The translations under genes and the position numbers were made by a program. From Lytechinus pictus (lineage: Eukaryota): a stretch of DNA of 64,000 nucleotides. The notes beneath the pieces are model-generated. The model saw nothing but the letters and a program-made list of their open reading frames with translations, ran no database searches and was not told where the DNA came from. Positions 519 through 64,000 of the stretch are shown here, piece after piece. Positions within the stretch are counted from its first letter, which is position 1; each line of letters begins with the position of its first letter. The stretch spans positions 12,340,001 through 12,404,000 of the forward strand of contig NC_087250.1 in assembly GCF_037042905.1 (NCBI RefSeq). Direction: 5' to 3'.

Positions 519-3500
519 TCACGGCAATTCGAATAAACAGAATACATCAAGTATTCTGACGGAACTGGTTCTTCTAGAGTGAGGACTTTTTACCCAAAAG
601 GATCTCTTGGGTTCTTCTGCGACTCTCAAAGTACTGAGATAAACTGAATAAAGTTCTCGAAAAGGCTTGCCGATCAAAACGTAGAGAGTTTTCGAATCGT
701 AGCTGCTTATAACCACGTTACCGTTTTCGAATTCCCTCCGGCCCGCGAATGAGATCTCGCGTAACTTGAAGTTGTCCACGTCTGAGAACTCGATGGAGTG
801 TTTTTCATAGCTAGGCCAGAACAGACGGCGCCCTGACTTTTAGAAATATAAAAGAAAGTGATGGAAACATTTCTTTAATATTACTTTTTAAGCAAATTTC
901 CCCGCTTAAGTTTACATATCTTGTAAGGAAGATAATAATGATGATAATGATAATGATAATGAGAGCAATAATAAAAAAATAATAATAACAATAATAACGA
1001 TATTTATAATAATGATACTAATAATAATAATAACGATAATAATAATAATAATGTTGATAATAGCAATAATGATGATGATGATAATAATAATAATACTAGT
1101 AATAATAACAATAATAATGATAATGGTAATAATATCAATAATGATAATGATGATGATAATAATAATAATAATGAGGATAATGATAATAATAAAAATAAAA
1201 ATGATAATGATAATAATAATCAGGATAATAATAATAAAAATAATGATAATGATAATATCAATAATAATAATAACAATAAAAAAGATAATGGTAATAATAA
1301 TAATAATGCGGATAATGATAATAATGATAACAATCAAAATGATAATGATAACAATATCAATAATAATAATAATGATAATAATAATAACAATAATAATAAC
1401 AACAACAACACCTGCTGTAAAGAACACGGTGTCACACAGTGTGTTCATTATTTACGCTTTTGCTCAAATTGCTCAATATTGAACAGTGTGAAGATATTTT
1501 CACACTGTGGACACCTCGACAGTGTGACTGTTCACAGAGTGTTCATATGGGCGCCGAAGTCCAGTGGTTCTGTCTCATCTTTAAATCAGAGGGCTCAATC
1601 GTTCCATCACTTAGCTACCTGGATAATGCAACTATTTTTTCAAAGTCATTTTAATTAACAAAACCAGCTGAACCAATGAACTTTTATGTAATAGCTTATT
1701 TGTCAGCATCCCTGAACAGATTCAAAAGAATTCAATATATTTAATGACAGATAAGCTTAACTCCACAATCTTGTCTTCGAAAAAAATGAATGACTTGCCC
1801 TTTTTATCGAAATGCAGGAATTTTGCTTCTGTGTTTTCGGCGAAGATGCTCGTTTGAACTATGTTATCAGTGACGTTGACTTTGATGATGTTTTCCAATG
1901 ATCCTAGATATATCATTCTGTTATTAAACGATATGAAATTGAGAAGACTGAATGTCTGACAATGTCACACAGTTAAAACTAAACCAAAATAAAATATGTA
2001 TCAATGGGATGCAACCATATGATATAGTAAAATAATATTAATGCATTGATCACATGTTTATTTTGTAAACAAAACGTGATTCTCTAAAATGGAAAGGAAT
2101 AGGCCTACGTGTTTTGTTTGCAGGTCAGAGTTCCTTCATACATAGAGCTGTGATTGATCCAATCAACCTCAATTATAAATGAAATTCCACCATTGTAATT
2201 TTTTTTAACCGAAATTTGTTTCTGAATAAATGCATTTTCCTACGGATTTCAGTAAACTCAATCAAATAAATTGATCAGCTAACAGCTTATTTTCATATAT
2301 GAATGAATAAGGAATTCGAGTCGTCTATATTCAACGATCTCTTGGTATTGAAAGTCACAGACCTTTTTCAATAAAGTATCAACGAGTTTCACCTATGTTG
2401 TTTATAGTAATTGTAAAATACAAAAACAAAAACAACAACCAAATCCTACCGATCTCGGTTGTCCATTACAAAGGATATCCAGCTATGAGTTGGATCAGTA
2501 GCAACCGTAGAGGGCGCAGTTCCATCTAGAAAGGACTTCTTAATATACCGTTTGTTCCCATCATCAGAGAGCCAATATATCTCGCGAGTTTCTTGAAGCA
2601 CATTGATAAACAATGCACCTGTACACCAAGAGATGAGTAAATAAAAAATCACATATAAATGAATAAATAAATAATGATAACAATGATAATGAGACCGAAA
2701 TGAATAAGCTTTTATGGACGAATTCGAGAAAAAGGAGAGGAAATAGAAACCCCCAATGATGTCATGCATTGGTCTGGCCGTGCTTTGATGCAACATGAGG
2801 GAATGTTCACTCCGCGATGTACGGCAGATTAAAAAAACACGGCAAATGTATTGAAAAATGCCCGTCAAAATTACAATGAACAGGTGGGAGGTATTACGAC
2901 ACTGCAACAAGTGGAGTGGTTCAGGAGCTACATCTTGAATAGGAAGCAATATGTCTTTTTAAACGGTTGCAATTCTCAAATGAAAAAAAATAATTGTGGA
3001 GTTCCCCAGGATAATATTTTAGGCCTGATTTTGTTTATAGTTTATATTAATGATTTTTGTAGATCATCAGATGTTCTTTCTTTCATTCTCTTTGCGGACG
3101 TCTCTAACTTATTTTTTTCACATAAAAATCCTCTTCACCTTGCTAATATAATCAACTCTGAACTAGAAAGTGTCACCGAATGGATAAGAGCAAATAAATT
3201 GTCACTAAATCTTAAAAAAACAAATATATGTTGTTTAGCAACTCTATAAATACACTTCCTGTTGATATTATTTAAGATGGAACTCCCTTGGAAAATGTAT
3301 CCCATATTAAGTTTCTTGGAATAACAGTCGATAATAAGCTCTCATGGAAATTTCACATAGATAACATATGTAAAACTATTTCACGCAACATTGGTATAAT
3401 TAACAAGCTTAAATTTTGTTTACCATTATCGTCCCTGCTTACATTATATTCATCCCTTATATTGCCTTATTTAAATTATGGAATTTTAGCGTGGGGTAAT

Positions 3501-6500
3501 ACACAACAAACACTCTTAGACAAATTACTCCTATTACAAAAGAAGTCTCTACGTATTATATGTCACACGGCATATTTGTCTCGTACTGACCCATTATTTT
3601 TTTAACATGAAATATTGAAAATTAAAGACTTATATTTGTTTAATCTCGGTCAGTTCATGTATAACTATAACAACAACAACCTCCCAAATGTATTTAATTC
3701 AATGTTTCCAAAAAATCAATCCATTCACAACTATCCAACAAGGCGATTGGGTGAATTTCATTTACCACTTTTAAGAACTTTGCGGGCTCAGAACACATTT
3801 ATATATGATGGACCGAAGTTATGGAACTCACTTCATAATGATATAACAAATGCTAAATCTTTGAACTCTTTTAAGATTAAATTCAAATTATCTCTATTAA
3901 AACCTTATAATATACTCCCAAATTAAGTTTACTTCATCATCTCTGTCAAGTCATCATTATTACTTTAAAGACTACAATTAAAACATAAAATAATTATCCT
4001 TTTTTATTTAAAAAAAAAAATCTGACACAAGTCCTTCTCAGATGTGCTCATTATTGAACCTCATACATTACTGTGTCTATCCTCTCTATTTTCTCCTCTC
4101 CTGTCCGCTTATCCGCCTTCCTACCGGTTATTTGTTCACGGCATCAATCACATTCTTCGTGCATTATATTCTTTCCAGGTTATTTTATATATCTTTTTCT
4201 CCTTTTATACACATCATTGAATCCAATTTGCTTGAGTCCAAGACGGCATGTGTTCTATCTACGTACAGCAGTACCCATCCATCTTCTCAGGGCATTCTCC
4301 CCTTTTTTCTTCTCTTTTTCTGGGGGGGGGGGTGGGGTGGAGAAGGGTGGATATTTTTAGGACGGGTTGTTTTGTCCTTTATCAAACTATATATTTTTGA
4401 TAACTTTGTATTTATTTTGTGAGTATTTCCCTCTAATGTATTTTTTTTCTCATTTGATTATCTGTATTTATACTTTGTTATTTTGTTATTTGTTGTGTTA
4501 TCTATTTTTTGAGGGGCCCACATTGTACAAGCATTGCTTTTTAGTGGGTCCCCCCATTTCCATCTTAATTTAATTTCTATTGAAAAATAGTATACATATT
4601 TAAAACCTATACAATGTGTTGCCCAAATTGTCTAAGTGTTTTTTCACAACATATGTATCATTAATTTTTTTTTTTTTGCAACGGATACAAATACTTATGT
4701 TTATATATGGTGTACAATTTGTTTTTGTTTGATGGAAGTGAAATAAATAAATTTGAATTTGAATTTGAACAAAATTAATAACAAGTTAGATCAATTCTAA
4801 ATTTGATCCCTTTCTTTAATTACAGGAACAGGAGGTATATAGATCATACACTTAATAAAATAAAAATTATCTCATGTATCTTGAAGAGTCAGTTATGGAT
4901 AATTCATGAATAAATCCTGTCCGTATAATGTCTAACTTGGGTGGCAATGATTCCTTGGACTACAATCCCCAAAACGGGCGATGATAAAATCGATGTTGAA
5001 ATGCGATGAATAATTACAGTCACTGTAGTGAGATGAAATGTCCGTGAAGATGAAGTTGATGATGATAAACATTCAATTTCAGCAATCCATTGGATGCAAA
5101 TTTCTTGTTTTTAGAACAGGTTGATGATCTCGATGAGAACTGAAAATTCCTCTCTTAAAATAACTGCAAAGAGCTAATTGATGGTGTGCAAATAATTCCA
5201 CAGAAGTTAATGTTGTATTTCACATAGAAATGAGCAATGCTCTGACAAGAAGACTGGCGTGAAACTCTGGGTTCTGATCTGATACGATGATCTCCTTGAA
5301 GGAACTACCAGTTTATAGATATATATATAAATTTCCACTATTCTGGAAGCTTTTAGTATTGTCTTTAAAAGAACATTATACTTCTGTCTAGAGCAGTCCA
5401 ATCTAGAAGACTCTTGAATGACCTGAGTGAAATCAACGACGTAAACAACATTTCTAATCTTATTGTCCTTTTCCACTGCCACAAAGAGGCCCTATTGTCT
5501 GCCAAGAATTATTGTAAATTACACAAAAACCAATTATTACTCTGCCCCATGCCTACATACCAAAGCTTAACTAAGACAGTCTGGAATCTTCTTATTATGC
5601 AATGAACTTCCTTAGAGAAAACGAATAATAACTAAATTGATGAATATACATGTAATTTATAATACATGTGGAGGAGCCATGGTGTAGTGGTTCTGACTCT
5701 CGCCTTGTAAACAGAGGGTCTTGTGTTCGTATCCCACCACGGTCTGGCGTCTTTTTGCAAGGCGTTAATCCACAGTTTGCCACTCTCGACCCAGGTGCTA
5801 TTAAATGGGTACCCGGTAGGATGTGAAAGTCAGTTTGTCCAGCACCGTGTGCGCCTCACCGGCGAATGACGGGAAAACTCCCCAGGGAGTGGAAGATGTG
5901 CACACATTGTGTGCGGGAATGACTGATTGAATCCGATGACCGGGGTAATAATATATCTGTATATCGCTTAGACACGTCGTTCCGATGTATTAAGCGCTAT
6001 ATAAAAGCAGATCATTATTATTTCTCTTACAATCATTCTTACATAACAGATGCCTTTGCCGAAAATGGAAGAACCGGAACAACAGTTTCGTCCTAAGCTT
6101 AAGAGCTGACGAAATTGCAAGTACGTCGTTTTTCCAGAGTCCATGACGTATTATTGCCGCTTTGATTCACAATTTTTTCGACAAAGACTTTTTCTTTTTC
6201 TTTGTCATGAAGGGCATTTGAGAATACACTTCTTCCGTTCTTGAAACCTCCGTTTGTTGCAGAGGGAATACTCCTTGTTCACATCGGCGACACGGACTCC
6301 AGACGGTAACACCGCATTTACTCCGGCGACAATCGTAAAGGCGTCGTACAATGGCCCTATGCTGCTCGTATGATGCACATACTTTTTACGATGCCCCTAC
6401 ACGGATCGTACGGTGTTCCAACGATTATATTTTGAAATAATAATAACTCCGCGTTAAAAAAAAAATCGTAGAGACTTTATACGATGATCGTCAATCCCTA

Positions 6501-45400: not shown

Positions 45401-47616
45401 AAATCATGGACCTATAGGTCCATGGTTAAATCCATTCAGTGTTTGGGAATGTATCAATATCACTTATATTACTTTTATATACAGAAACCCGGTATGAAGA
45501 TTTAGAAAAAGGTTCGTGGACCCTGAGTTGGTGTCATGACATTTTCTCCGGTTTTAAAATCTCAGAGGGCACAGATCTAGAGTAAGGATTGGAATATAAT
45601 TTTTGGTTCAGAATAATATAAAGATTAAGATAAGGGTTTATTTAGTTTCGGAGGTTAGGTTTTATGCTTGGCTTAACGTGCAGATTTTCCATTCGAGCAA
45701 TTGTCGCCGGAGCGAATGTCATGGAACAAAACTATCCATATTTACGTTTTAAAAAAACATGAGAGACTGAGTTAAGACCCCCCCCCCCTACCCCCACCTA
45801 CGTCTACTCTGCGTCCCCTGTTACGATCTGCGGAGGGGCATCGTATGATATTCGCAGGGCGTCTGTACATCTTTGTTTCGAATTGGCCCACTTTCCATTA
45901 AATCCATCTCTGTGTAACTACAATGACACAGGTTATTCCATCTTGATGATTATGATGATGATGATCCACAGCATTTTCTTGAGCAATATTTATGTTTAAA
46001 ACATTCATATGCGCAGGTTCATCATCATCATCATCATCATCGTCAGCATGATCATCATTATCATCATCACCTCACCATCAACATCCTCGTCATCATCACT
46101 ATCGTGATGATGATGATGATGATGTGGTGGTGATGATGATGACGGTGATGATGATGATGATGGTAATGATGGTGACGATGATTATCATCCTCATCACCAT
46201 CGCCATCATGCTCACCACCATCAACATCATCACCTTCATCATCATCATCATCATCATCATTGCCATTATCATCGTCATCATTATCACCATTATTATCATC
46301 ATCATTCCCATCGCCATCATCATCATCACCATCATTTCATCTTACCTCTGATTGTCTTGTTGAATGGTGCATTGGCCATCGCCCTGCCATCGAAGTCCAG
46401 TTCATCATAGGCCATGATCATGATATAATCCAAGATCTCGCCGATGGCATGGAAGTCGTAACACCGCTTGAAAATTGTGCAGTCCGGTGTGTACGGGGAA
46501 TCTAGCGTCACCTTCGAGGAGGGGGGGTTGTGAAAATAAATGTATGGCCTGTACATTAGTAAAATTGTGCCGAGGTGATCGACTGGAACGTGGCTTCTTA
46601 TACAAGGATCGTTATCATGGTTATGATACGATCATATATTGTAGTCTTAATTACGCTTTCGGTATATTAAACCATTCAAATTAAACGGCGTGTATGCTTT
46701 ATATGCAACCTGGTTTACGTAGCAAGTAAAGAGAGTTGACAAAAATATATTAAAAGGTAAACAACAATGTTAAACCTTCGAATATTATCATTGGAATTTT
46801 AAACATTTATTTCTTTTTATTTAAACTATCCCTTATTAATAACGTAAGCCAAGATGTATATGCCATTATAATTGTGTAACTGAGAATTTAATCTAAAACG
46901 TTTGATAAGTCAAATTAATAAAAATTAATAGTGCTTATTTTCAATTTTCAATTGGACTTATTTGTTTTTCAAACAATTCTGAACCCCCTGCCTCTTTCTT
47001 CGCAATGTATGTTTGTTTTTCATCACCTCTTTTAAACCCTCATCCACCCACACACACACCCTCACACCTACGCATTTTCACCATTCTATCTCCATTTATT
47101 GCCTTATTTGTATATAATCAATTGTATTATTGGTAAATTTATTAAAGAAAAATAACCATGCTTAAAAATCAAAGCATAAATACGATTAATATTACTGCGT
47201 GATTTTACCAAAATAAATAATTTCAATATGTTTTGGGAAATGATCAGAGACTGACCTGCGAGTATGGCATGGCCTTCGTAAAAGCATCCTTTATTTGTTT
47301 GACCATCTCAGTGAGAACACCTGCCTGTGACTTGTCTAATGGTTGTTCAAAATCGATGTTAAATCCATCGGTAAAGTTACCAATAGCCGAGTCCACCGTT
47401 TGCTCAATCCAGGCGATGCGGGCGCTCTCGTTGAATAGGGTATCCAAAGAAAATGTTCCTAAAATGAACATATGAAATAGTTCTTGTAAATTCCTTTTGA
47501 CTATGATATTGGACGCTCATGATTTTTCATCCCTTATAAACGCTATTGGAAATGTCATAATGTCCCACAGTATGTTTCACCATGTCCACATTGTGTGTTA
47601 ACAGTGTGGCATCCTA

Positions 47617-47672
<56 letters not shown>

Positions 47673-50218
47673 TGACTATGGAGTACCCCAAGGATCTGTT
47701 TGTGGGCCTATATGTTTTATTTTGTTCAAGTATCTGCAATATCTTCAAACCGTCAGTGTATTTACGCACTGGCATTCAGAACCCCAGCAGCACACTGAAT
47801 AACACTGATATTTTGTGTCCGTTGTGGTCTAGTGGTTCTGACTCTCGCCTTTGAAACAGAGGGTCGTGGGTTCGAATTCCAGCCATGGCGTGTTTTCCTT
47901 CAGCAAGAAATTTATCCACACTGTGCTGCACTCGACCCAGGTGAGGTGAATGGGTACCCGGCAAGAGTAATTCCTTGCATGCACTGAGCGCCGGTGAAGG
48001 TAGCTCGAGCTAAAGCCGGGGTAATAATAGCAGCGCTTTGTATCCTATGGCAAAAAGCGCTTTATAAATCCAGCTAGTATTATTATTATCATTATTATTA
48101 TTAAAACTTGGAATGCTGAAACAGACACTTTGCTGACAAATTAACTCACCCATCATAACGATCCTGACTCCTTTAGAGTGAGCATGGCACAGTATCTGCG
48201 GATCAAATCCCTCCCTCACAATCACGGCTGTCATATTGTCCCAGAAATAATGTTTCCAGTACGCCCCACTTCCTGAAAACGCCACCACCTGTGAAAGAAT
48301 GATCGTTGATGGCAATAATGAAAAAAAAAATGATGTTAAAAGTGGTCATCCCGACATTCCTAATTATGATTATGGTGATTATATCACCATCATTTAATTC
48401 ATAATAATTTTTCATGATTAAAGTGCAAGTTTTTGGTTATCGATCTCTACTCCTGTTTATTTGCTAAACAAATTATTGCTGAGTTAGAGAGAAGATTGTA
48501 TATGTAATGTATTTTCATTTAATTTACAATGTATATTCTTGTTATTCTTCTATTTACGCATCCGAACTCTGTAGAATTGCATTCACGTCCTTACGATAAC
48601 ACTTCTAAATTAGTAACTTTATAAGCATTGTGTAGGTCTACGACTATGTGTAGACAATAATTGGCATTCCTGATTATTATTTAAAAAAAATTACTGCATA
48701 ATTGCCTCCCCCAACTAAATAAATAATCAATAATAAATAGATTAATTAAACAACATAAAAAAGGTATTATATATTCAACTGCCCATGACCATAATGCAAA
48801 GTTAAGGTTTTACAATCGATTTTGTGATTATTTGTAAAAAAACAAAAAACAAAGTTGGAATAAATAAATGTGTATACAAGCCTGCATGGCTGGCATATAG
48901 TATGCTGCAAATTTACACTACACGTTTACTACACTTCAAGGTCGGACGCATCCGAGAAAGAATAACTTTAAAGGTCTCCGTCGGCTATGAGGGAGGTGCA
49001 ACAAAAGTAGAGTCAGAAATATACTTCCTTCTCACTACGGAAACAGTGAGCAATTCTCATACTACATTTAATTAAGGCAGGGGCGAATCCATGATTTTTT
49101 TTTAAAGGAGGGGGGTGGCACATTTTTCCGAGGAAAAATTTGAGAAGCAAAAAAAAAAAAAAAAAAAAAAAAACAGGGGGTTTAACAAAAAAATAAGGGT
49201 ATACTTTGTCCACGAAAAGATTTGGCAAGTATATAAGAACAAAAAACACAAAAAAGGTCTTCACTTTCTAAGGGGAGAGGGGCACCCTTCTATTTTATAG
49301 GCATTTTTACATCACAAATCTTAATTGTGCCTATCCGCCAGTGCCTGGTACGTGGAGATGGGTGTAAGGTCTCCATAAAGTTCATCTTCTGTTTTGAGAT
49401 CTGAATATTTTGTAACCTTAAAATTCGAGTTTATGTGCCATCTGGGATCTTGCCTATCTTTTAGGGCCTAGCCTCCTTGACTGTCCATGTTTCTTGACAT
49501 TCACTTTCTACACCTGCCGTAAACAGGGAGAGTTTTGCGGACAGAGAAATATTTTAGTGATTCCCAAATCAAATGCAGCTTATTACATGAATTCCATGCA
49601 AGAGCTTTCCTACATGTAGATAGAAAGTCTTTCACTGAGTTACATACTGCATGTATGAACCTAAATACTTATAATCATCCACTTCTTTAATAATAATAAT
49701 ATAGAGTATTTCTAAAGCGCCAAATCGACATTGATTATGTGCTCAAGGCGCTGAAATATACTTGATATATTACTATTACCCCGGCTGTATAGCTGAGCGG
49801 CCATATAGGCGCTAGAGCATTCAAGGAATAAATCCTACCGGGTACCCATTCACATCACCTGGGTCGAGTGCAGCACAATGTGGATAAATTTCTTGCCGAA
49901 GGAAATTACGCCATGGCTGGGATTCGAACCCACGACCCTCTGTTTCAAAGTCCGAAGACTAATCCACTGGGCCACAACGCTCCACAATAGCCACTTCCCT
50001 TGTCAATATATTTTAGAAATCTGTGCAATACCAACCTCCTTCATCGCCGTGGTTCGAATCGGCTCACACAACGTGTGATTGGAACAAGGACATGATGTCG
50101 GGCGAAGAACCTTTCCGCAGGCAAAACACAGCAATCCAGTCATCAAAAACGTGAAAATAACCAGTAGATAAAGCTGCAATACTTTGGACGCCATTTTCGT
50201 AAGAATGGCTGTGATCAT
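42412..50218 (-). CDS. CTBS: Di-N-acetylchitobiase-like glycoside hydrolase family 18, 374 aa, 7 coding exons
   Basis: Exons 50218-50036, 48288-48150, 47458-47256, 46511-46346, 45268-45171, 43964-43830, 42612-42412. GT-AG introns, consistent phases, 1125 nt. Signal peptide, CPCSNHTLCEPI, LCHAHSKGVRIV, catalytic DGFNIDFE, IMAYDE, VPWYGYDFPC, HQVWYDN, CLDYS and EMWDA match chitobiase. May be a divergent paralog. Confidence 0.9.
44040..44560 (+). mobile_element. L2-type LINE 3' fragment
   Basis: SARLICRLPKVSPVTSLLRELHWLPVRQRTTFKIL...APSYISDLL...APRLWN; tail gcgctatataaatgcat(att)n. Antisense within CTBS intron 5. Confidence 0.85.
45398..45431. mobile_element. P-like excision footprint of the CATGGACCTA family
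   Basis: gttaaat + catggacctataggtccatg + gttaaat. Confidence 0.75.
46019..46335. repeat. (CAT)n/(GAT)n microsatellite with an internally inverted block
   Basis: CAT run, then GAT run (~46105-46180), then CAT run, ending about 10 bp from the CTBS exon 4 donor. Confidence 0.9.
47619..47672. repeat. (TA)n microsatellite
   Basis: Nearly pure AT dinucleotide run. Confidence 0.95.
47817..48102 (+). mobile_element. tRNA-derived SINE, near full length
   Basis: Very similar to 28560-28840, including the (att)n tail. Confidence 0.9.
49688..49983 (-). mobile_element. tRNA-derived SINE
   Basis: Reverse complement ggagcgttgtggcccagtgg...ggttcgaatcccagccatggcg...tgctgcactcgacccaggtg. Confidence 0.9.
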
Positions 50219-50533
50219 GAGTTCCGTCTCGAAGTCGTGCAGTCATGTGAGATATATATAGACCCACATATTTACATATATCGCGACCTTGCACTTTAAT
50301 ATTATCATGATTATAGGCCTATTGTTTATATTTATGATAGGCACATCATGACCCGGGAGTGCATGGTCCATTATCTTTTAATGCATTAGGGGGGGTCTTA
50401 GAGAGAGAGAGAGAGATAGATAGAGGGAGGGAGAGAGAGGAGGTGGTGGGGAGGACTAGCTGAGAGGAAAGGAGGGAGGGAGCGAGGGAGAAAGAGGTGA
50501 GAAGGGGAATAACTTACTTTTGAGATATACAGG

Positions 50534-50714
50534 CAGTGGCGTGTACCTAGGATTTTCCACAGGGGGGGGGGCAAATTCGTCCGCCAAAAAATTTGACAAG
50601 CAAAAAAAAAAGGTTTTCAAGACTCGTCAGGGGGGCAGGGATATGTCCCTTGTGTGGGTTGTGACTCGTCAGGGGGGGGGTCAGTCTGCCCCCCCCCCCG
50701 TAGGTACGCTAGTG
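50534..50714. mobile_element. hAT-like MITE with 8-bp TSD, upstream of CTBS
   Basis: cagtggcgtgtacctag...taggtacgctagtg flanked by tatacagg on both sides. Confidence 0.85.
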
Positions 50715-50884
50715 TATACAGGGCAACCGAAAAGAAACCAAAAAATGTAAAGAACGGAACAAAAAAGAAAGACCACAAAGAAAATTGAAATTAAAAGAAG
50801 TGGCTTGTTTGGACGTAAACAGAATACCCCTTAAGATTTTAATCACATTTTAGATATTGTTCTGTAGTAATGATAGCTCAGTTG

Positions 50885-59700: not shown

Positions 59701-62323
59701 CAATATTTCATTAATACAGAGTGATGGGGAGGAGACCCACCCGGGTTTATCAGAATATGAGCAGAGGAGGATGGAGAACATCTCCAAGAATGCTGAGTTC
59801 TTCGCTTCTCTTGATATCTTCAAGGTCAGTTTCTTCAGGACCATTCACATCGCTCCGTGCTGACCTTGCGGGCGAGTTGTGGTCAATCACCCCCAACTCA
59901 CTCGTAACATGGTTTTGAGCATGTTCAAAACTTTTCTGGGGGCAATCAAACAAGTTTGCGTGCGCTCCTGTGGGTAACTGTCACGTGCAAGACTTGCACG
60001 GAACAATGTGACAAGGCCTTATAAATTACAAATCTTATTGCATATTATCATCTGTTTTCGTTGGGAAGTTGACACCATTCGGACACAAATCATAAAATGG
60101 AATGAGATTTATATATTCTAGGTCAGGTTCGTTAGGGTCTGAGGCCAATAAAAACTATTTTCAGAGTAAGAAATGATGGTGATAATAATACTGATAAAAT
60201 GATGATGAATAATTATAATAAGGCATTCATGATACCAAAGACTATACTTGTAGCTTGAGAAGGCTGTATCAAGTTTCATTAGTTTTGCCTACATTTATAG
60301 TGGAGATGATCTGAGCTGTCAGGGGCCTGTACAGAAAAAATTGTAATTAAACACAACTACAAAATGAAACAACTTTACTTCCAACCAACCTGTTGCATGT
60401 AATTGGGACTTGCTTTTGGTTTGTTGCATTGTGTAGCTATTTCTGCCAATGATCCAGAAAGGTTTACATAATATACATTGAACAGTTGACCCTTTGACCT
60501 TCATTGCTCCATTAATTGCTCTTTTATTACTCTTCAAGCCCACAAACCCGAGCAATAGACCCCTAACATAACTTACATTGGATGACATTTTACCTTTAAT
60601 GATCTTTTGACCCTTTGATCGTTGAGGCCTTAAGTGGAATGTTGTTGCCCTCACTCCTTCCACAAACCCATGAAATAGACCAGGGTCCTGTAACACAAAA
60701 GTTAGCGATTGATTGCTAATTAAAAAAAAACAATTCTGATTGGTTCATAGTCGGTCTACTTAGCAAAATATGCTTGCAACGATGATCTTGATCGGTCATT
60801 TCATTAAGTGATTAATCGCTAAACCTATGTCTTATGGCGCCCAGTACTGGCTGCACAGAAATGTTAGCAAACAAGGCTCTCTGTTACTACCAGTAATGTT
60901 GCAGCAATGCCTAATGTCACAACAGCATGTTATTTACGTTTTGGATCAATGTATGTCATCACCATCCGAAAGATGTGATCAGGGGCCCGTTTCGTAAAGA
61001 GCTACAACTGTTTTAACTTTGCCATAATGGCAACTACCATGGTAACCTTGAGTTTGATTGGCTGCTGAGCCCTGTTGCCATGGTAGTTGCCATTATGGCA
61101 AAGTTACAACAGTTGTCACTCTTCATGAAACGGGCCCCAGGCCGACTGTTAGTGTTCTGTTAGCGCTTACAACATTTCTGAGCGGCCGGTACAGGTTCAC
61201 GCAATGTGTGGAATACTTGACCTTTAATGATCTGTTGACCCTTTGACCTTTTATTTTGTAGGCCAAGGAGAATCTTATTGCTCTCAGTCCTCAAGCCCAG
61301 AAACCCAAGACACAGACCAGAGGACTAAAGAGGTATGTATAGTAATATTTTTTATGACCTACCACCCCAAACCAATGCTTAGTCACCCCATTGTGACACT
61401 TATTTAATTTTAAAAAGCACATCCCGACCTTCAAAATGATATAAAACTTGTCAAAATTGATCACCAATAACCCACCCAAGTATACTTGGTTGAAAGTAGA
61501 AGAAATTTAGAGAGCCCTTCAAAGAATTAGGAGGAAACAAGGTTTGAAGTTTTGGGGTTCACTCAAGCATGAGATGTGCATACTGTACAGTCTCAGTGAA
61601 ACTTCCAAGCTTTTTAATCAGAACTTTGTTTTAGATGGTGTATTTACTGCTGCACCAAGATCATGGGTGGGTGCAAGAACATTTTCTTAACCCTGACTGC
61701 TGAATTCTGTAGTTCCCATGTATACTTTCTATAGGGTCCTTTTGGTTCCAGTAGGCAACTGGTTAAGTCCTCACATCAATCAGGTTTACATTTTCATTGA
61801 CTTAAATTCCATGTTTTCCCAAATTAATCCTTTTTTGTGTTAAAAAAAAACAAATTTCTATGGATTCTGATGAGTTGGAGAGTCACAGGTACCTTCTGGA
61901 AAAGAAATATAGCCCAATTATATATCTATGAAACCAACAACTTTGCATGATGTTCTAAGTACTGATAATTTAGAATGAAGATTTGCTCATGATTTACTCT
62001 CGTTCTGATTGCTGTTTATTTGGTTATTTTCTTTAATTCAGTCAGCGACAGTCCCATTCCCCTATTGTCCGAAGAGCGCCCTCGCTCCGTCTGCAGAAGA
62101 AGAGCCCGGAAGGAACGGCATTACCAGAGGGTTTCAAGGAACCACCTCTTCAAAGTTATTACACACAGCAGACCAGAGAACGCGTAGGTTTTTTTCATTT
62201 TATATTTTTTATGTTATGCCAATAATTGGGCTAAAATAAGACCACATGTCCCTGTATCCCCCTCAGTGGCGTACCTAGGATTTTCCACAGGGGGGGCAAA
62301 ATCGGTCGCCAAAAAATTTGACA

Positions 62324-62362
<39 letters not shown>

Positions 62363-63494
62363 TCCTCAAGAAACTCGTCAGGGGGGGCAGGTATATGTCT
62401 TTTGTATGGGTTGTGACTCGTCAGGGGGGGCAGAGTGCCCCCCCTGCCCCCCCCCCCCCGTAGGTACGCTAGTGATCCCCCTTAACCCATGCACACACTA
62501 ATTCTATTTGAATACTCATCCTAGTATTGGTCAATACAGGAGAGATTGCGCTCTGACCCTATCAAAAATGGAGGCCATGAATTTCAAGCAAGATCTTTTG
62601 AAAAGAAGGGGGTATAGTATTTGTGAGAGAGTAGGAGCATACAGTGGTGCCTAATTTGGGCTGTAAAAGGAACACATTCCCCTGCCATGAATACGCCAAT
62701 TCTATTTGAATACTCATTCCTTATTGGTCGATACAGGAGAGATTGCCCTCTGACCCGATCAGAAATGGGAGCCACGAATCTCAAGCAAGATCTTTTAAAA
62801 AGAAGGAGGTACTTTAGTGGGGGTATGATGCCAATAATTGGTGCAAAAATAGGAGCACATGCCCCCTGTATCCCTCTTAATCCATGCATACTCTAATTCT
62901 ATTTGAATACTCGATCTTAGTATTGGTTGATACAGGAGAGATTGCTCTCTGACCCGATCAAAAATAAAAATGGAGGCAACGAATCTCAAGCAAGATCTTT
63001 TGAAAAGGAGATTCTTTGGTGGGGGTTATGATGTCAATAATTGGTGCAATAATAGGAGCACATGCCCCCTGTATCCCTCTTAATCTGCACACACCCCAAT
63101 TCTATTTGAATACTCTATCTAAATTGTTTGATACAGGAGAGTTTACCCCCGACCCGATCCAAAAATGGAGGCCACAAATCTCAAGCAAGATGTTTTGAAA
63201 AGAAGGGGGTATATTATTTGTGAGAGAATAGGAGAATATGGCCAAATTTGGGGCTATAAAAAGAGCACCTGCCCCCTGTATCCCCCTTAATCAATGAATA
63301 CTCCAATTCTATTTGATGCTCAATCCTGATTGTTCGATACAGGAGAGGTTGCCCTCTGACCCAATCAAGATGGATGCCACGAACGTCAAGAAAGAGGACA
63401 AGTCGGATGCTGGGGCCGACTTTGTGAAGGGGCTTGCTGCCCTCGCAAAGGGGAAAAAGACAAGCATCAAGGCTGATGACAGGGATATTGACAA
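56759..63494 (+). CDS. WDR76: WD repeat-containing protein 76 (CMR1 homolog), N-terminal six exons; gene continues beyond the window
   Basis: Exons 56759-56860, 58857-59090, 59720-59824, 61262-61332, 62042-62183, 63343-63494 with consistent phases. GLSEYEQRRMENISKNAEFFASL followed by RRAPSLRLQKKSPEGTALP resembles the WDR76/CMR1 N-terminal motifs. The WD40 repeats are not reached within the window. Confidence 0.8.
57170..57613. mobile_element. MITE with ~38-bp TIRs and apparent 5-bp TSD
   Basis: gttag-cagtagaggcgcacggccaatattggagac ... gtctcctatattagccgtgcgcctctactg-gttag. Confidence 0.75.
57708..57995. repeat. Local tandem duplication, 2 x ~145 bp
   Basis: taatctaagttaattaaagttgaatgttactt... 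occurs at ~57708 and ~57854. Confidence 0.9.
58088..58700. mobile_element. ~600-bp Kolobok-like MITE, best-preserved copy
   Basis: ttaaaggtcaagtccacc ... ggggtggacttgtcctttaa. Confidence 0.85.
62214..63395 (+). repeat. Tandem array of five ~200-bp units, each carrying the WDR76 exon-6 acceptor and exon start
   Basis: atacag|gagag.tt.c....gaccc.atc at 62540, 62737, 62936, 63137 and the true exon at 63343. Confidence 0.9.
62264..62474. mobile_element. hAT-like MITE with 8-bp TSD (same family as 50534-50714)
   Basis: cagtggcgtacctag...taggtacgctagtg flanked by atccccct on both sides. Confidence 0.9.
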
Positions 63495-64000
63495 GTAAGC
63501 TCTTATTTCTCTTTAACATTAAAGCCCACGGGCTGTATTCTGAGGTCATTTTATCTTTGAAATATTTTATTATATCTCTTGAAATGAAATTGGTATTCTG
63601 AGATGACATTTTATCTCTATATTTTATTTTATATAAATAAATGAATAAAAAAAAGGAAATCTCTTTGAAGAAGTGATAGCGAATATTGCAAGTGTATTTG
63701 AAGGAAAAGTTGACGCAATCTTACTCCTTTGCCACACCTCTTGGCGGAATGGATTTCTTTTGGTTGAGTGAGATGAGAGAGTTGTTAAAGCGCGTTTCTC
63801 ATTGGATATTGCTTAAAAAGTAGGTGTGTCTTACAGAGATAAAATGAAGATAACATTGTTCTCAGATACCAATTCGGAGAGATTTTTAAGGTATTTTCTC
63901 TCGCTGATTATTTTCGGAGATAAAATGGATCTCAGAATACCACACCAGCACACTCTATGCGATCAAATGAGACATATTTGTAATGAATTGCATTTTGCTT

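What the first reader, a model, noticed from the sequence alone, without database searches (positions are those of the whole stretch)
62214..63494. Tandemly multiplied splice acceptor and exon start in WDR76 that would give frame-preserving 72-nt cassettes
Seen: intron 5 contains four extra ~200-bp copies of the exon-6 3' splice site plus the first ~55 nt of exon 6 (starts at 62540, 62737, 62936, 63137; true exon at 63343). All four keep the AG. Copies 1, 2 and 4 have a GT exactly 72 nt downstream (62612, 62809, 63209) and no stop codon, so each would insert 24 aa in frame (e.g. ERLPSDPIRNGSHESQARSFKKKE). Indels among the copies are +6/-3 (copy 3, which lacks the GT) or a compensating -1/+1 (copy 4). 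Inference: either a nascent array of alternative micro-exons in the N-terminal linker, or competing decoy acceptors that must be skipped. The donors are weak (gtatag, gtactt, gtatat).
Basis: partly seen in the sequence, partly recalled or inferred. Interest (0 to 1): 0.7.

Follow-up and report, generated by a model that had tools for sequence, protein, structure and literature searches.

The report
Duplicated splice acceptors skipped inside intron
A sea-urchin WDR76-like gene carries four extra tandem copies of one intron-exon boundary inside its fifth intron, and the RNA data at hand show the cell splicing straight past them, so they look like silent leftovers of a duplication, not new mini-exons.

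Summary
Intron 5 (62184-63342) of a WDR76-like gene, most likely of Lytechinus pictus, is almost wholly a ~200-bp tandem array. It has four full units plus a partial first one split by a 211-bp MITE. Each unit repeats the last ~113 nt of the intron and the first ~52 nt of exon 6. All four keep the AG; copies 1, 2 and 4 have GT at +72 and an open frame.

The micro-exon reading is not supported. In three RNA-seq runs, 20 of 25 listed junction reads from donor 62183 go to the true acceptor 63343. A 2216-nt transcript contig joins exon 5 directly to exon 6. No junction from any +72 GT is listed. All 5 annotated proteins from two Lytechinus species lack an insert.

Five reads were laid on the copy-3 acceptor (62936). 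They reach about 26 nt into it and spell the exon-6 peptide, so they are probably mis-laid reads of a divergent exon-6 allele. This is unproven.

The open frame is unremarkable: a second frame is open in every copy, dN/dS is 0.5-0.86, and chance gives 0.10-0.36.

Best reading: an intronised tandem duplication whose decoy acceptors are skipped. Interest is low to moderate.

The parts
62042..62183 (+). Coding exon 5 of the WDR76-like gene (142 nt), with donor GT at 62184
   Evidence: Exact threading of P0004 on the DNA; RNA depth and junction reads
62184..63342 (+). Intron 5 (1159 nt, GT..AG). Apart from its first ~25 nt it consists of the tandem array plus one MITE
   Evidence: junction 62183->63343 in 20 reads of 3 runs
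62209..62263 (+). Left half of the partial first unit (type B tail). It continues at 62483-62539 after the MITE and ends in the first decoy AG
   Evidence: Local alignments to the tails of units 2-4, scores 46-62; flank comparison
62264..62474 (.). 211-bp MITE holding a 34-A run. Exact 8-bp target-site duplication ATCCCCCT at 62256-62263 and 62475-62482; terminal inverted repeats match 13 of 16
   Evidence: 2562 first-look candidates genome-wide, 40 scored, 79 matches; RNA reads of both strands with loose ends at 62263/62264
62540..62736 (+). Unit 1 (197 nt, type A). Decoy acceptor AG at 62538-62539, pseudo-exon 62540-62611, GT at 62612
62737..62935 (+). Unit 2 (199 nt, type B). Decoy acceptor, pseudo-exon 62737-62808, GT at 62809
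62936..63136 (+). Unit 3 (201 nt, type B, 89% identical to unit 2). Decoy acceptor, no GT at +72. Five short-overhang RNA reads were laid on this acceptor
63137..63342 (+). Unit 4 (206 nt, type A). Decoy acceptor, pseudo-exon 63137-63208, GT at 63209. Its 3' part is the working branch/acceptor region of exon 6
63343..63494 (+). True coding exon 6 (152 nt), with donor GTAAGC at 63495

Best explanation
A segment spanning the intron-5/exon-6 boundary of a WDR76-like gene was duplicated in tandem. It held about 113 nt of intron, the first ~52 nt of exon 6 and ~35 nt of junction sequence. It was then amplified to four and a half units, probably by unequal crossing-over, giving unit types in the order (B)-A-B-B-A. 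A MITE later landed in the first unit. Together these grew an intron of roughly 140 nt to 1159 nt. Only the last copy is followed by the rest of exon 6 and its GTAAGC donor, and that acceptor is the one used. The upstream copies are now intronic pseudo-exons that drift neutrally and are removed with the intron. SHOWN: the array and its anatomy; splicing from 62183 to 63343 as the main product in four runs; no insert in the annotated proteins. INFERRED: the order of events; neutrality of the copies; the way they are skipped. For the skipping I favour recognition of the exon as a whole, through the exon-6 body beyond +52 and its donor. The local acceptor signals of real and decoy copies score alike and cannot be what tells them apart.
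For: Array: TRF period 197, 4.6 copies. Units are 197/199/201/206 nt; units 2 and 3 are 89% identical and the other pairs 75-80%. Identity to the real copy is 48-50 of 63 columns for intron -60..-1 and 40-43 of 52-58 for exon +1..+52, then falls to 23-24 of 47-49. RNA: the junction 62183->63343 has 10, 5 and 5 reads in X6, X7 and X8, with up to 60-73 nt on the shorter side. The X1 contig of 2216 nt joins exon 5 to exon 6, with four allelic letters in place of the last 4 nt of exon 5. No joint from a +72 GT is listed. Depth over 62510-63302 is 0 in 13 of 13 bins of X8, where exon depth is 9-19. Annotation: 5 of 5 proteins (3 L. pictus, 2 L. variegatus, 617-621 aa) read ...TR(E/D)R|ERLPSDPIKMD... 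with no insert. P0004 threads exactly on the genome. Neutrality: dN/dS is 0.50-0.86, differences fall 2/4/3 by codon position, and the frames stay open by chance in 0.10-0.36; a second frame is open in all five copies. Reading on from any decoy acceptor meets a stop after 25-31 codons, so use of the last acceptor is what keeps the protein intact. The array is not an assembly artefact: reads of another individual run unbroken over 62571-62997 (X6), and an X1 contig covers 62506-62696 with 0 differences.
Against: Five reads (X6 1, X7 4, X8 0) are listed as a GT..AG joint 62183->62936, the copy-3 acceptor. If real, that is 5 of 25 junction reads. Only about 6% of each raw run was read, and a joint needs 3 reads in one run to be listed, so rare junctions can hide. 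Reads under 95% likeness were dropped, and this population is very polymorphic (one search lists 13 variant rows at 12 places within exon 6). Reads from diverged copies of other haplotypes may therefore simply not have been laid. The tissues or stages of the runs are unknown to me. By a crude 13-site matrix, decoy acceptors (-0.4 to 1.3) equal the real one (0.6), and the +72 donors (5.3-6.1) fall within the real range. Site strength therefore does not explain why the decoys are skipped; the exon-definition step is inference only.
Confidence: 0.75

Rival explanations
1. A decoy acceptor (copy 3 or a similar copy in another haplotype) is really used in a minority of transcripts or in one allele. 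Copy 3 has no +72 GT and reading on meets a stop, so the product would be unproductive and probably cleared by nonsense-mediated decay, or would use another donor.
For: Joint 62183->62936, GT..AG, 1 read in X6 and 4 reads at 3 start places in X7. The reads carry A at the sixth letter after the AG, as copies 1-3 do; one search lists no variant at 63348 for the exon-6 reads. Decoy acceptors score like the real one.
Against: The shorter side is 26 nt at most. X7 depth in bin 62937-62997 is 1.64, which equals four reads of about 25 nt, and the next bin is 0. The 26 letters, with the read variants 62946 T>C and 62947 C>A, translate to ERLPSDPI, the exon-6 peptide. They share the C>A change seen in exon-6 alleles at 63354, whereas the reference copy 3 encodes ERLLSDPI. 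With a short overhang such a read has 2 mismatches to copy 3 and 3 to the reference exon 6, so mis-laying is expected. X7 depth falls from 21 at the 3' end of exon 6 to about 6 at its start, as if junction reads of a diverged allele were lost there. No downstream joint out of copy 3 is listed.
Confidence: 0.18
2. The copies are genuine in-frame 72-nt alternative micro-exons, used in a tissue or stage not sampled here. Each would add 24 residues to the disordered N-terminal linker.
For: AG, a GT at +72 and an open frame in 3 of 4 copies. The +72 donors score within the range of this gene's real donors. Indels are +6, -3 and a -1/+1 pair.
Against: No such joint and near-zero depth in three RNA runs; a direct exon 5-exon 6 transcript contig. 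0 of 5 annotated proteins carry an insert. There is no sign of coding constraint and a second frame is equally open. The +6 is a duplicated AAAAAT and the -3 falls in GAAAAGAAGG, both slippage-prone spots (read). The GT lies in the part that is not exon-derived.
Confidence: 0.05
3. The array is an assembly artefact, a mis-assembled repeat with a wrong number of copies.
For: Tandem repeats are prone to wrong copy numbers in assemblies (general knowledge).
Against: RNA reads of an independent run cover 62571-62997 without a break, and an X1 contig matches 62506-62696 with 0 differences. The units differ by 11-25%, enough to assemble unambiguously. The junction read skips exactly 1159 nt, but that does not test the interior.
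Confidence: 0.02

Closest known systems
Intron birth or growth by tandem genomic duplication (Hellsten et al. 2011, PMC3265369, abstract read; Lehmann et al. 2010, PMC2891723, passages read)
   Same: An internal tandem duplication that includes coding sequence is tolerated because the extra copy is spliced out. The duplicated exon sequence becomes intron.
   Different: In those cases the duplication of an exonic AG|GT proto-splice site creates a new intron. Here an existing donor and an existing acceptor are used, no new intron arises, and an old one is lengthened about eightfold. The duplicate was also amplified to 4-5 units.
Pseudo-exons and decoy splice sites in introns
   Same: Segments flanked by AG and GT, of exon-like size and plausible site scores, that the spliceosome ignores.
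   Different: Ordinary pseudo-exons arise by chance. These are true paralogues of a working acceptor, 76-79% identical over the last 60 intron bases, and stand four in a row just upstream of it.
Alternative or mutually exclusive exons born by tandem exon duplication (recalled)
   Same: Tandem copies of exon sequence with their acceptor, lying within one gene.
   Different: Only the first third of the exon is copied, the copies have no inherited donor, and no inclusion in RNA was seen.
Minisatellite / VNTR in an intron
   Same: Head-to-tail units of ~200 bp with subtypes, consistent with unequal exchange.
   Different: The unit derives from a functional splice junction. Copy-number variation between individuals was not tested.

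Membership tests
Intronised tandem duplication of gene sequence | Direct tandem repeat that contains sequence homologous to an adjoining exon | tested here: met
   Exon +1..+52 is 40-43 of 52-58 columns identical to each copy; TRF array
Intronised tandem duplication of gene sequence | The extra copies are removed from the mature RNA | tested here: met
   20 junction reads 62183->63343 and one transcript contig joining exon 5 to exon 6; 5 ambiguous reads remain
Intron gain by duplication of an AGGT proto-splice site (Rogers/Hellsten model) | Both splice sites of the intron derive from the two copies of one duplicated exonic AG|GT | tested here: not met
   The donor at 62184 lies outside the repeat, which starts near 62209. 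The acceptor is a pre-existing intron end. The boundary is AG|GA, not AG|GT
Cassette or mutually exclusive exons from exon duplication | Copies are included in mature RNA | tested here: not met
   No joint from the +72 GTs; depth is 0 over the copies in X8 and at most 1.64 in X7; 0 of 5 annotated proteins carry an insert. Limits: about 6% of each run was read, 95% likeness filter, tissues unknown
Cassette or mutually exclusive exons from exon duplication | Coding constraint on the copies | tested here: inconclusive
   dN/dS 0.50-0.86 on 9-17 differences and no third-position excess; too few sites for a firm test
Recursive splice sites | The acceptor is followed at once by a donor (AG|GT) | tested here: not met
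   All five sites read AG|GAGAG
WDR76/DDB2 family (host gene) | C-terminal WD40 propeller most like DDB2, behind a long N-terminal extension | tested here: met
   Pfam WD40 52.6 bits against a cut-off of 27. The best solved relatives are DDB2 chains, E 5e-29, over residues 296-608. A source names it WDR76-like. That WDR76 and DDB2 form one family is recalled
hAT-like MITE (the insertion at 62264-62474) | Short, non-coding, terminal inverted repeats, 8-bp target-site duplication, many copies | tested here: met
   211 bp, TSD ATCCCCCT twice, TIR 13 of 16; 2562 first-look candidates. The link of an 8-bp TSD and a CAG... end to the hAT superfamily is recalled, not tested

The most novel reading that the evidence does not exclude
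The decoy array is not inert. In some haplotypes an upstream copy competes as acceptor, as the five reads at 62936 may hint. That would divert part of the WDR76-like pre-mRNA into stop-containing products, so copy number or sequence of the array would set the dose of a DNA-damage-response protein. A natural series of near-identical acceptors, all scoring like the real one yet mostly ignored, would also be a ready-made test bed for what defines an exon beyond its splice sites.
Probability: 0.15. Interest if true: 0.5.

Novelty: new member of a known kind. Interest (0 to 1): 0.25.

Why it matters
It is a clean natural example of a gene absorbing a tandem duplication across an intron-exon boundary: the extra copies become intron and the protein is unchanged. 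The point of some interest is that the decoy acceptors are as good as the real one by local sequence, and the real one is among the weakest in the gene. Choice of the last copy must therefore rest on information in the exon body or its donor. That makes the locus usable for minigene tests of exon definition in an echinoderm. It changes nothing known about WDR76 itself.

Tried and rejected
I used searches of the genome and 10-kb stretches instead.

2. The look-up of sequencing runs listed no holder on record as RNA. The usable RNA runs came by species label.

3. Earlier findings of this scan held nothing for this place or sequence.

4. Comparison with the orthologous intron of L. variegatus or other L. 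pictus haplotypes was not possible. No tool here holds that DNA; only proteins could be compared.

5. A paralogous gene as the source of the divergent RNA reads is rejected. The protein search of the assembly finds one set of 14 exons and nothing else.

6. The unit as a dispersed repeat is rejected. It occurs only at this locus in the DNA search (lower bound).

7. Recursive splicing is rejected (AG|GA).

8. Splice-site strength as the reason for skipping was tried with a matrix built from only 13 sites. It gave no separation, and its power is low.

9. Homology of the copies to exon 6 beyond +52, seen by eye as TTTGTGAGAGAG against TTTGTGAAGGGG, was not upheld by the segment identities.

10. 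The script failed because it read a gapped row of the alignment. It was repeated correctly.

That search gave no paper on multiplied acceptors at an intron-exon boundary among its 15 listed titles. This is no proof of absence from print.
Full report
WHAT IS THERE

The window is G000:C6:12340001-12404000 of an 811-Mb eukaryotic assembly. Translating exon 6 and searching longer proteins gave one hit, 98% identical. A source names it 'WD repeat-containing protein 76-like [Lytechinus pictus]'. Its 90% cluster has 5 members, 3 from L. pictus and 2 from L. variegatus. One of them, P0004 (618 aa), sits on a contig of 28,517,652 bases, the length of C6.

P0004 threads letter for letter on the DNA as 14 coding exons with GT..AG introns. 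Exon 5 is 62042-62183, exon 6 is 63343-63494 and intron 5 is 1159 nt. A protein search of the whole assembly finds only this one set of exons.

Pfam gives WD40 above its cut-off (52.6 bits against 27). The closest solved chains are DDB2 (E 5e-29, residues 296-608). This fits a WDR76/DDB2-family protein with a long N-terminal extension; the family link itself is recalled.

THE ARRAY

Tandem Repeats Finder reports 62475-63395, period 197, 4.6 copies, 76% matches. Anchored on the acceptors, the units are 197, 199, 201 and 206 nt. Units 2 and 3 are 89% identical; all other pairs are 75-80%.

Units 1 and 4 share one form of the variable middle part (type A). Units 2 and 3 share another (type B). 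The partial unit at the very start is of type B. The repeat begins about 25 nt after the exon-5 donor.

Its first unit is interrupted at 62264-62474 by a 211-bp element. This has an exact 8-bp target-site duplication (ATCCCCCT), terminal inverted repeats matching 13 of 16, and a run of 34 A. It belongs to a family with at least 2562 first-look candidates in the genome. Taking the element and one copy of the duplication out leaves the same ...CCCTGTATCCCCCTTAA... junction as in the other units.

Intron 5 is thus about 25 nt of unique sequence, a roughly 113-nt ancestral 3' part, four added units and one MITE. An intron of roughly 140 nt has become 1159 nt. This is inference from the anatomy.

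Against the working copy, each decoy is 48-50 of 63 columns identical over intron -60..-1 and 40-43 of 52-58 over exon +1..+52. Identity is only 23-24 of 47-49 over +53..+96. The exon-derived part is therefore about 52 nt, and the GT at +72 lies in junction sequence of other origin.

All are confirmed: AG at all five sites, GT at +72 in copies 1, 2 and 4, an open frame of 24 codons, and the indels.

They carry little weight as signs of function. A second frame is also open over the first ~69 nt in all five copies. Nei-Gojobori dN/dS among copies 1, 2 and 4 is 0.50, 0.73 and 0.86 on 9, 15 and 17 differences. The 9 differences between copies 1 and 2 fall 2/4/3 over the codon positions.

In simulations, a copy diverged by 10-25% stays open with probability 0.71-0.47, and three copies do so with 0.36-0.10. 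The GT came with the unit by descent. The +6 is a doubled AAAAAT and the -3 lies in GAAAAGAAGG, both places where slippage in threes or sixes is expected (read).

WHAT THE RNA SHOWS

Three ribo-depleted paired-end RNA runs of the same species label were laid on 61900-63700 at 95% likeness or more. These were X6, X7 and X8, raw reads, with about 6% of each read. One run kept as contigs (X1) was laid with them.

Exons 5 and 6 are covered on one strand, at depth about 8-28. The joint 62183->63343 (GT..AG, skips 1159) has 10, 5 and 5 reads, with up to 60-73 nt on the shorter side.

The X1 contig of 2216 nt holds exon 5 and exon 6 back to back. Four letters replace the last four of exon 5. They would turn ...ER into ...DR, as in protein P0001, so this is an allele, not another junction.

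No joint that starts at 62612, 62809 or 63209 is listed, and none that ends at 62540, 62737 or 63137. Over 62510-63302, X8 has depth 0 in 13 of 13 bins and X7 has at most 1.64. X6 has depth 2-4 running without a break from 62571 to 62997, across pseudo-exons and spacers alike. That is the pattern of unspliced precursor, not of cassettes.

All five annotated proteins read ...TR(E/D)R|ERLPSDPIKMD... without an insert, and the exon-6 start is invariant between the two species.

THE RESULT AGAINST MY READING

A joint 62183->62936 (GT..AG, the copy-3 acceptor) is listed with 1 read in X6 and 4 reads at 3 start places in X7; X8 has none. Taken at face value it is 5 of 25 junction reads. I think it more likely a mis-laying, for these reasons:

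- The shorter side is 26 nt at most. The X7 depth of 1.64 in the 61-nt bin equals four reads of about 25 nt, and the next bin is empty.
- All four X7 reads, and 1 of 3 X6 reads there, carry 62946 T>C and 62947 C>A. The 26 letters then spell ERLPSDPI, the exon-6 peptide. The reference copy 3 spells ERLLSDPI.
- The C>A is the same change as the exon-6 allele at 63354.
- Such a read has two mismatches to copy 3 and three to the reference exon 6, so a short overhang goes to copy 3.
- Exon 6 is very polymorphic here, with 13 variant rows at 12 places, many in reads with 3-6 other differences. X7 depth drops from 21 at its 3' end to about 6 at its start. That fits loss of junction reads of a diverged allele at the 95% filter.

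Against this view, no variant at 63348 is listed for exon-6 reads, and an A there is what the reads need. Places near the ends of pieces may go unlisted, though: the X1 piece has 10 differences, of which only 7 are listed. I give the real-use reading 0.18.

LIMITS OF THE RNA EVIDENCE

Few reads were laid. A joint is listed only from 3 reads in one run. Diverged haplotypes are filtered out. I do not know the tissues or stages sampled. Inclusion of a cassette at a few per cent, or in an unsampled tissue, is not excluded.

HOW THE DECOYS ARE SKIPPED

This step is inferred. A matrix built from this gene's own 13 introns has low power. By it, the real exon-6 acceptor scores 0.6 with 59% pyrimidines, among the weakest of the 13. 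The decoys score -0.4 to 1.3. The +72 donors score 5.3-6.1, within the real range of 2.1-11.3.

Local site strength therefore does not tell the real acceptor from the decoys. What differs is everything after +52: the rest of the 152-nt exon and its GTAAGC donor. I therefore favour recognition of exon 6 as a unit (exon definition; recalled concept), with the pseudo-exons lacking the needed exonic signals.

Selection explains why it must be so. Reading on from any decoy acceptor meets a stop after 25-31 codons.

COMPARISON WITH WHAT IS KNOWN

Tandem duplication inside a gene that is tolerated because the extra copy is spliced out is a known route of intron birth. Hellsten et al. 2011 (PMC3265369) covers it; I read only the abstract. 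Lehmann et al. 2010 (PMC2891723) covers it too; I read passages.

This case differs. No new intron is made and the splice sites used are the old ones. The proto-splice-site criterion is not met (AG|GA; the donor lies outside the repeat). The duplicate was multiplied.

It is also a set of pseudo-exons of known pedigree. I file it as a new member of known kinds, not a new kind. My two paper searches listed nothing on multiplied acceptors at an intron-exon boundary, which does not show that none is in print.

VERDICT

The micro-exon interpretation is not supported, and the decoy interpretation is supported. Interest is 0.25.

Noticed in passing
window 62264-62474 (another copy near 50460-50750): A 211-bp MITE with exact 8-bp target-site duplication ATCCCCCT, inverted ends CAGTGGCGTACCTAGG / CACTAGCGTACCTACG (13 of 16) and an internal run of 34 A. 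The genome search gave 2562 first-look candidates. RNA reads of both strands pile up on it with loose ends exactly at 62263/62264, so copies elsewhere are transcribed. The second copy in the window is seen as a look-alike translated frame at 50460-50747 and a terminal-repeat word at 50703.
   Followed up: partly
window 62042-62183 and 63343-63494: Very high allelic diversity in the RNA runs: 6 variant places in exon 5 and 12 in exon 6, forming at least three haplotypes. One allele replaces the last four letters of exon 5 (E to D) and has S to T at 63403, matching the annotated protein P0001 from another record of the species.
   Followed up: partly
window 63323-63342: The working acceptor of exon 6 has one of the poorest pyrimidine tracts of the gene's 13 acceptors (59% pyrimidine over -20..-4, tied with intron 2; crude matrix score 0.6, third lowest).
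   Followed up: partly
window 63530-63670 and about 63860-63950: Short look-alike words (gtattctgag...attttatct) recur in both orientations in intron 6. RNA reads of both strands cover 63547-63668, with loose ends at 63611 and 63618. This is probably another small repeat family.
   Followed up: no
window 2833-3923 (+): Three consecutive open frames of 106-138 aa whose translations look like the reverse-transcriptase part of a non-LTR retrotransposon. This is by eye from the ORF list; no family search was run.
   Followed up: no
window 46335-48345 (-): Several open frames on the minus strand look like exons of a glycosyl-hydrolase-18 (chitobiase-like) gene, the upstream neighbour of the WDR76-like gene. 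This is by eye only.
   Followed up: no
cluster of P0001: L. variegatus has two distinct WDR76-like protein records of 617 aa on one 47.8-Mb contig, and an older L. pictus record set has two of 621 aa. The present assembly has a single gene. These may be haplotype duplicates or a true duplication in the sister species.
   Followed up: no
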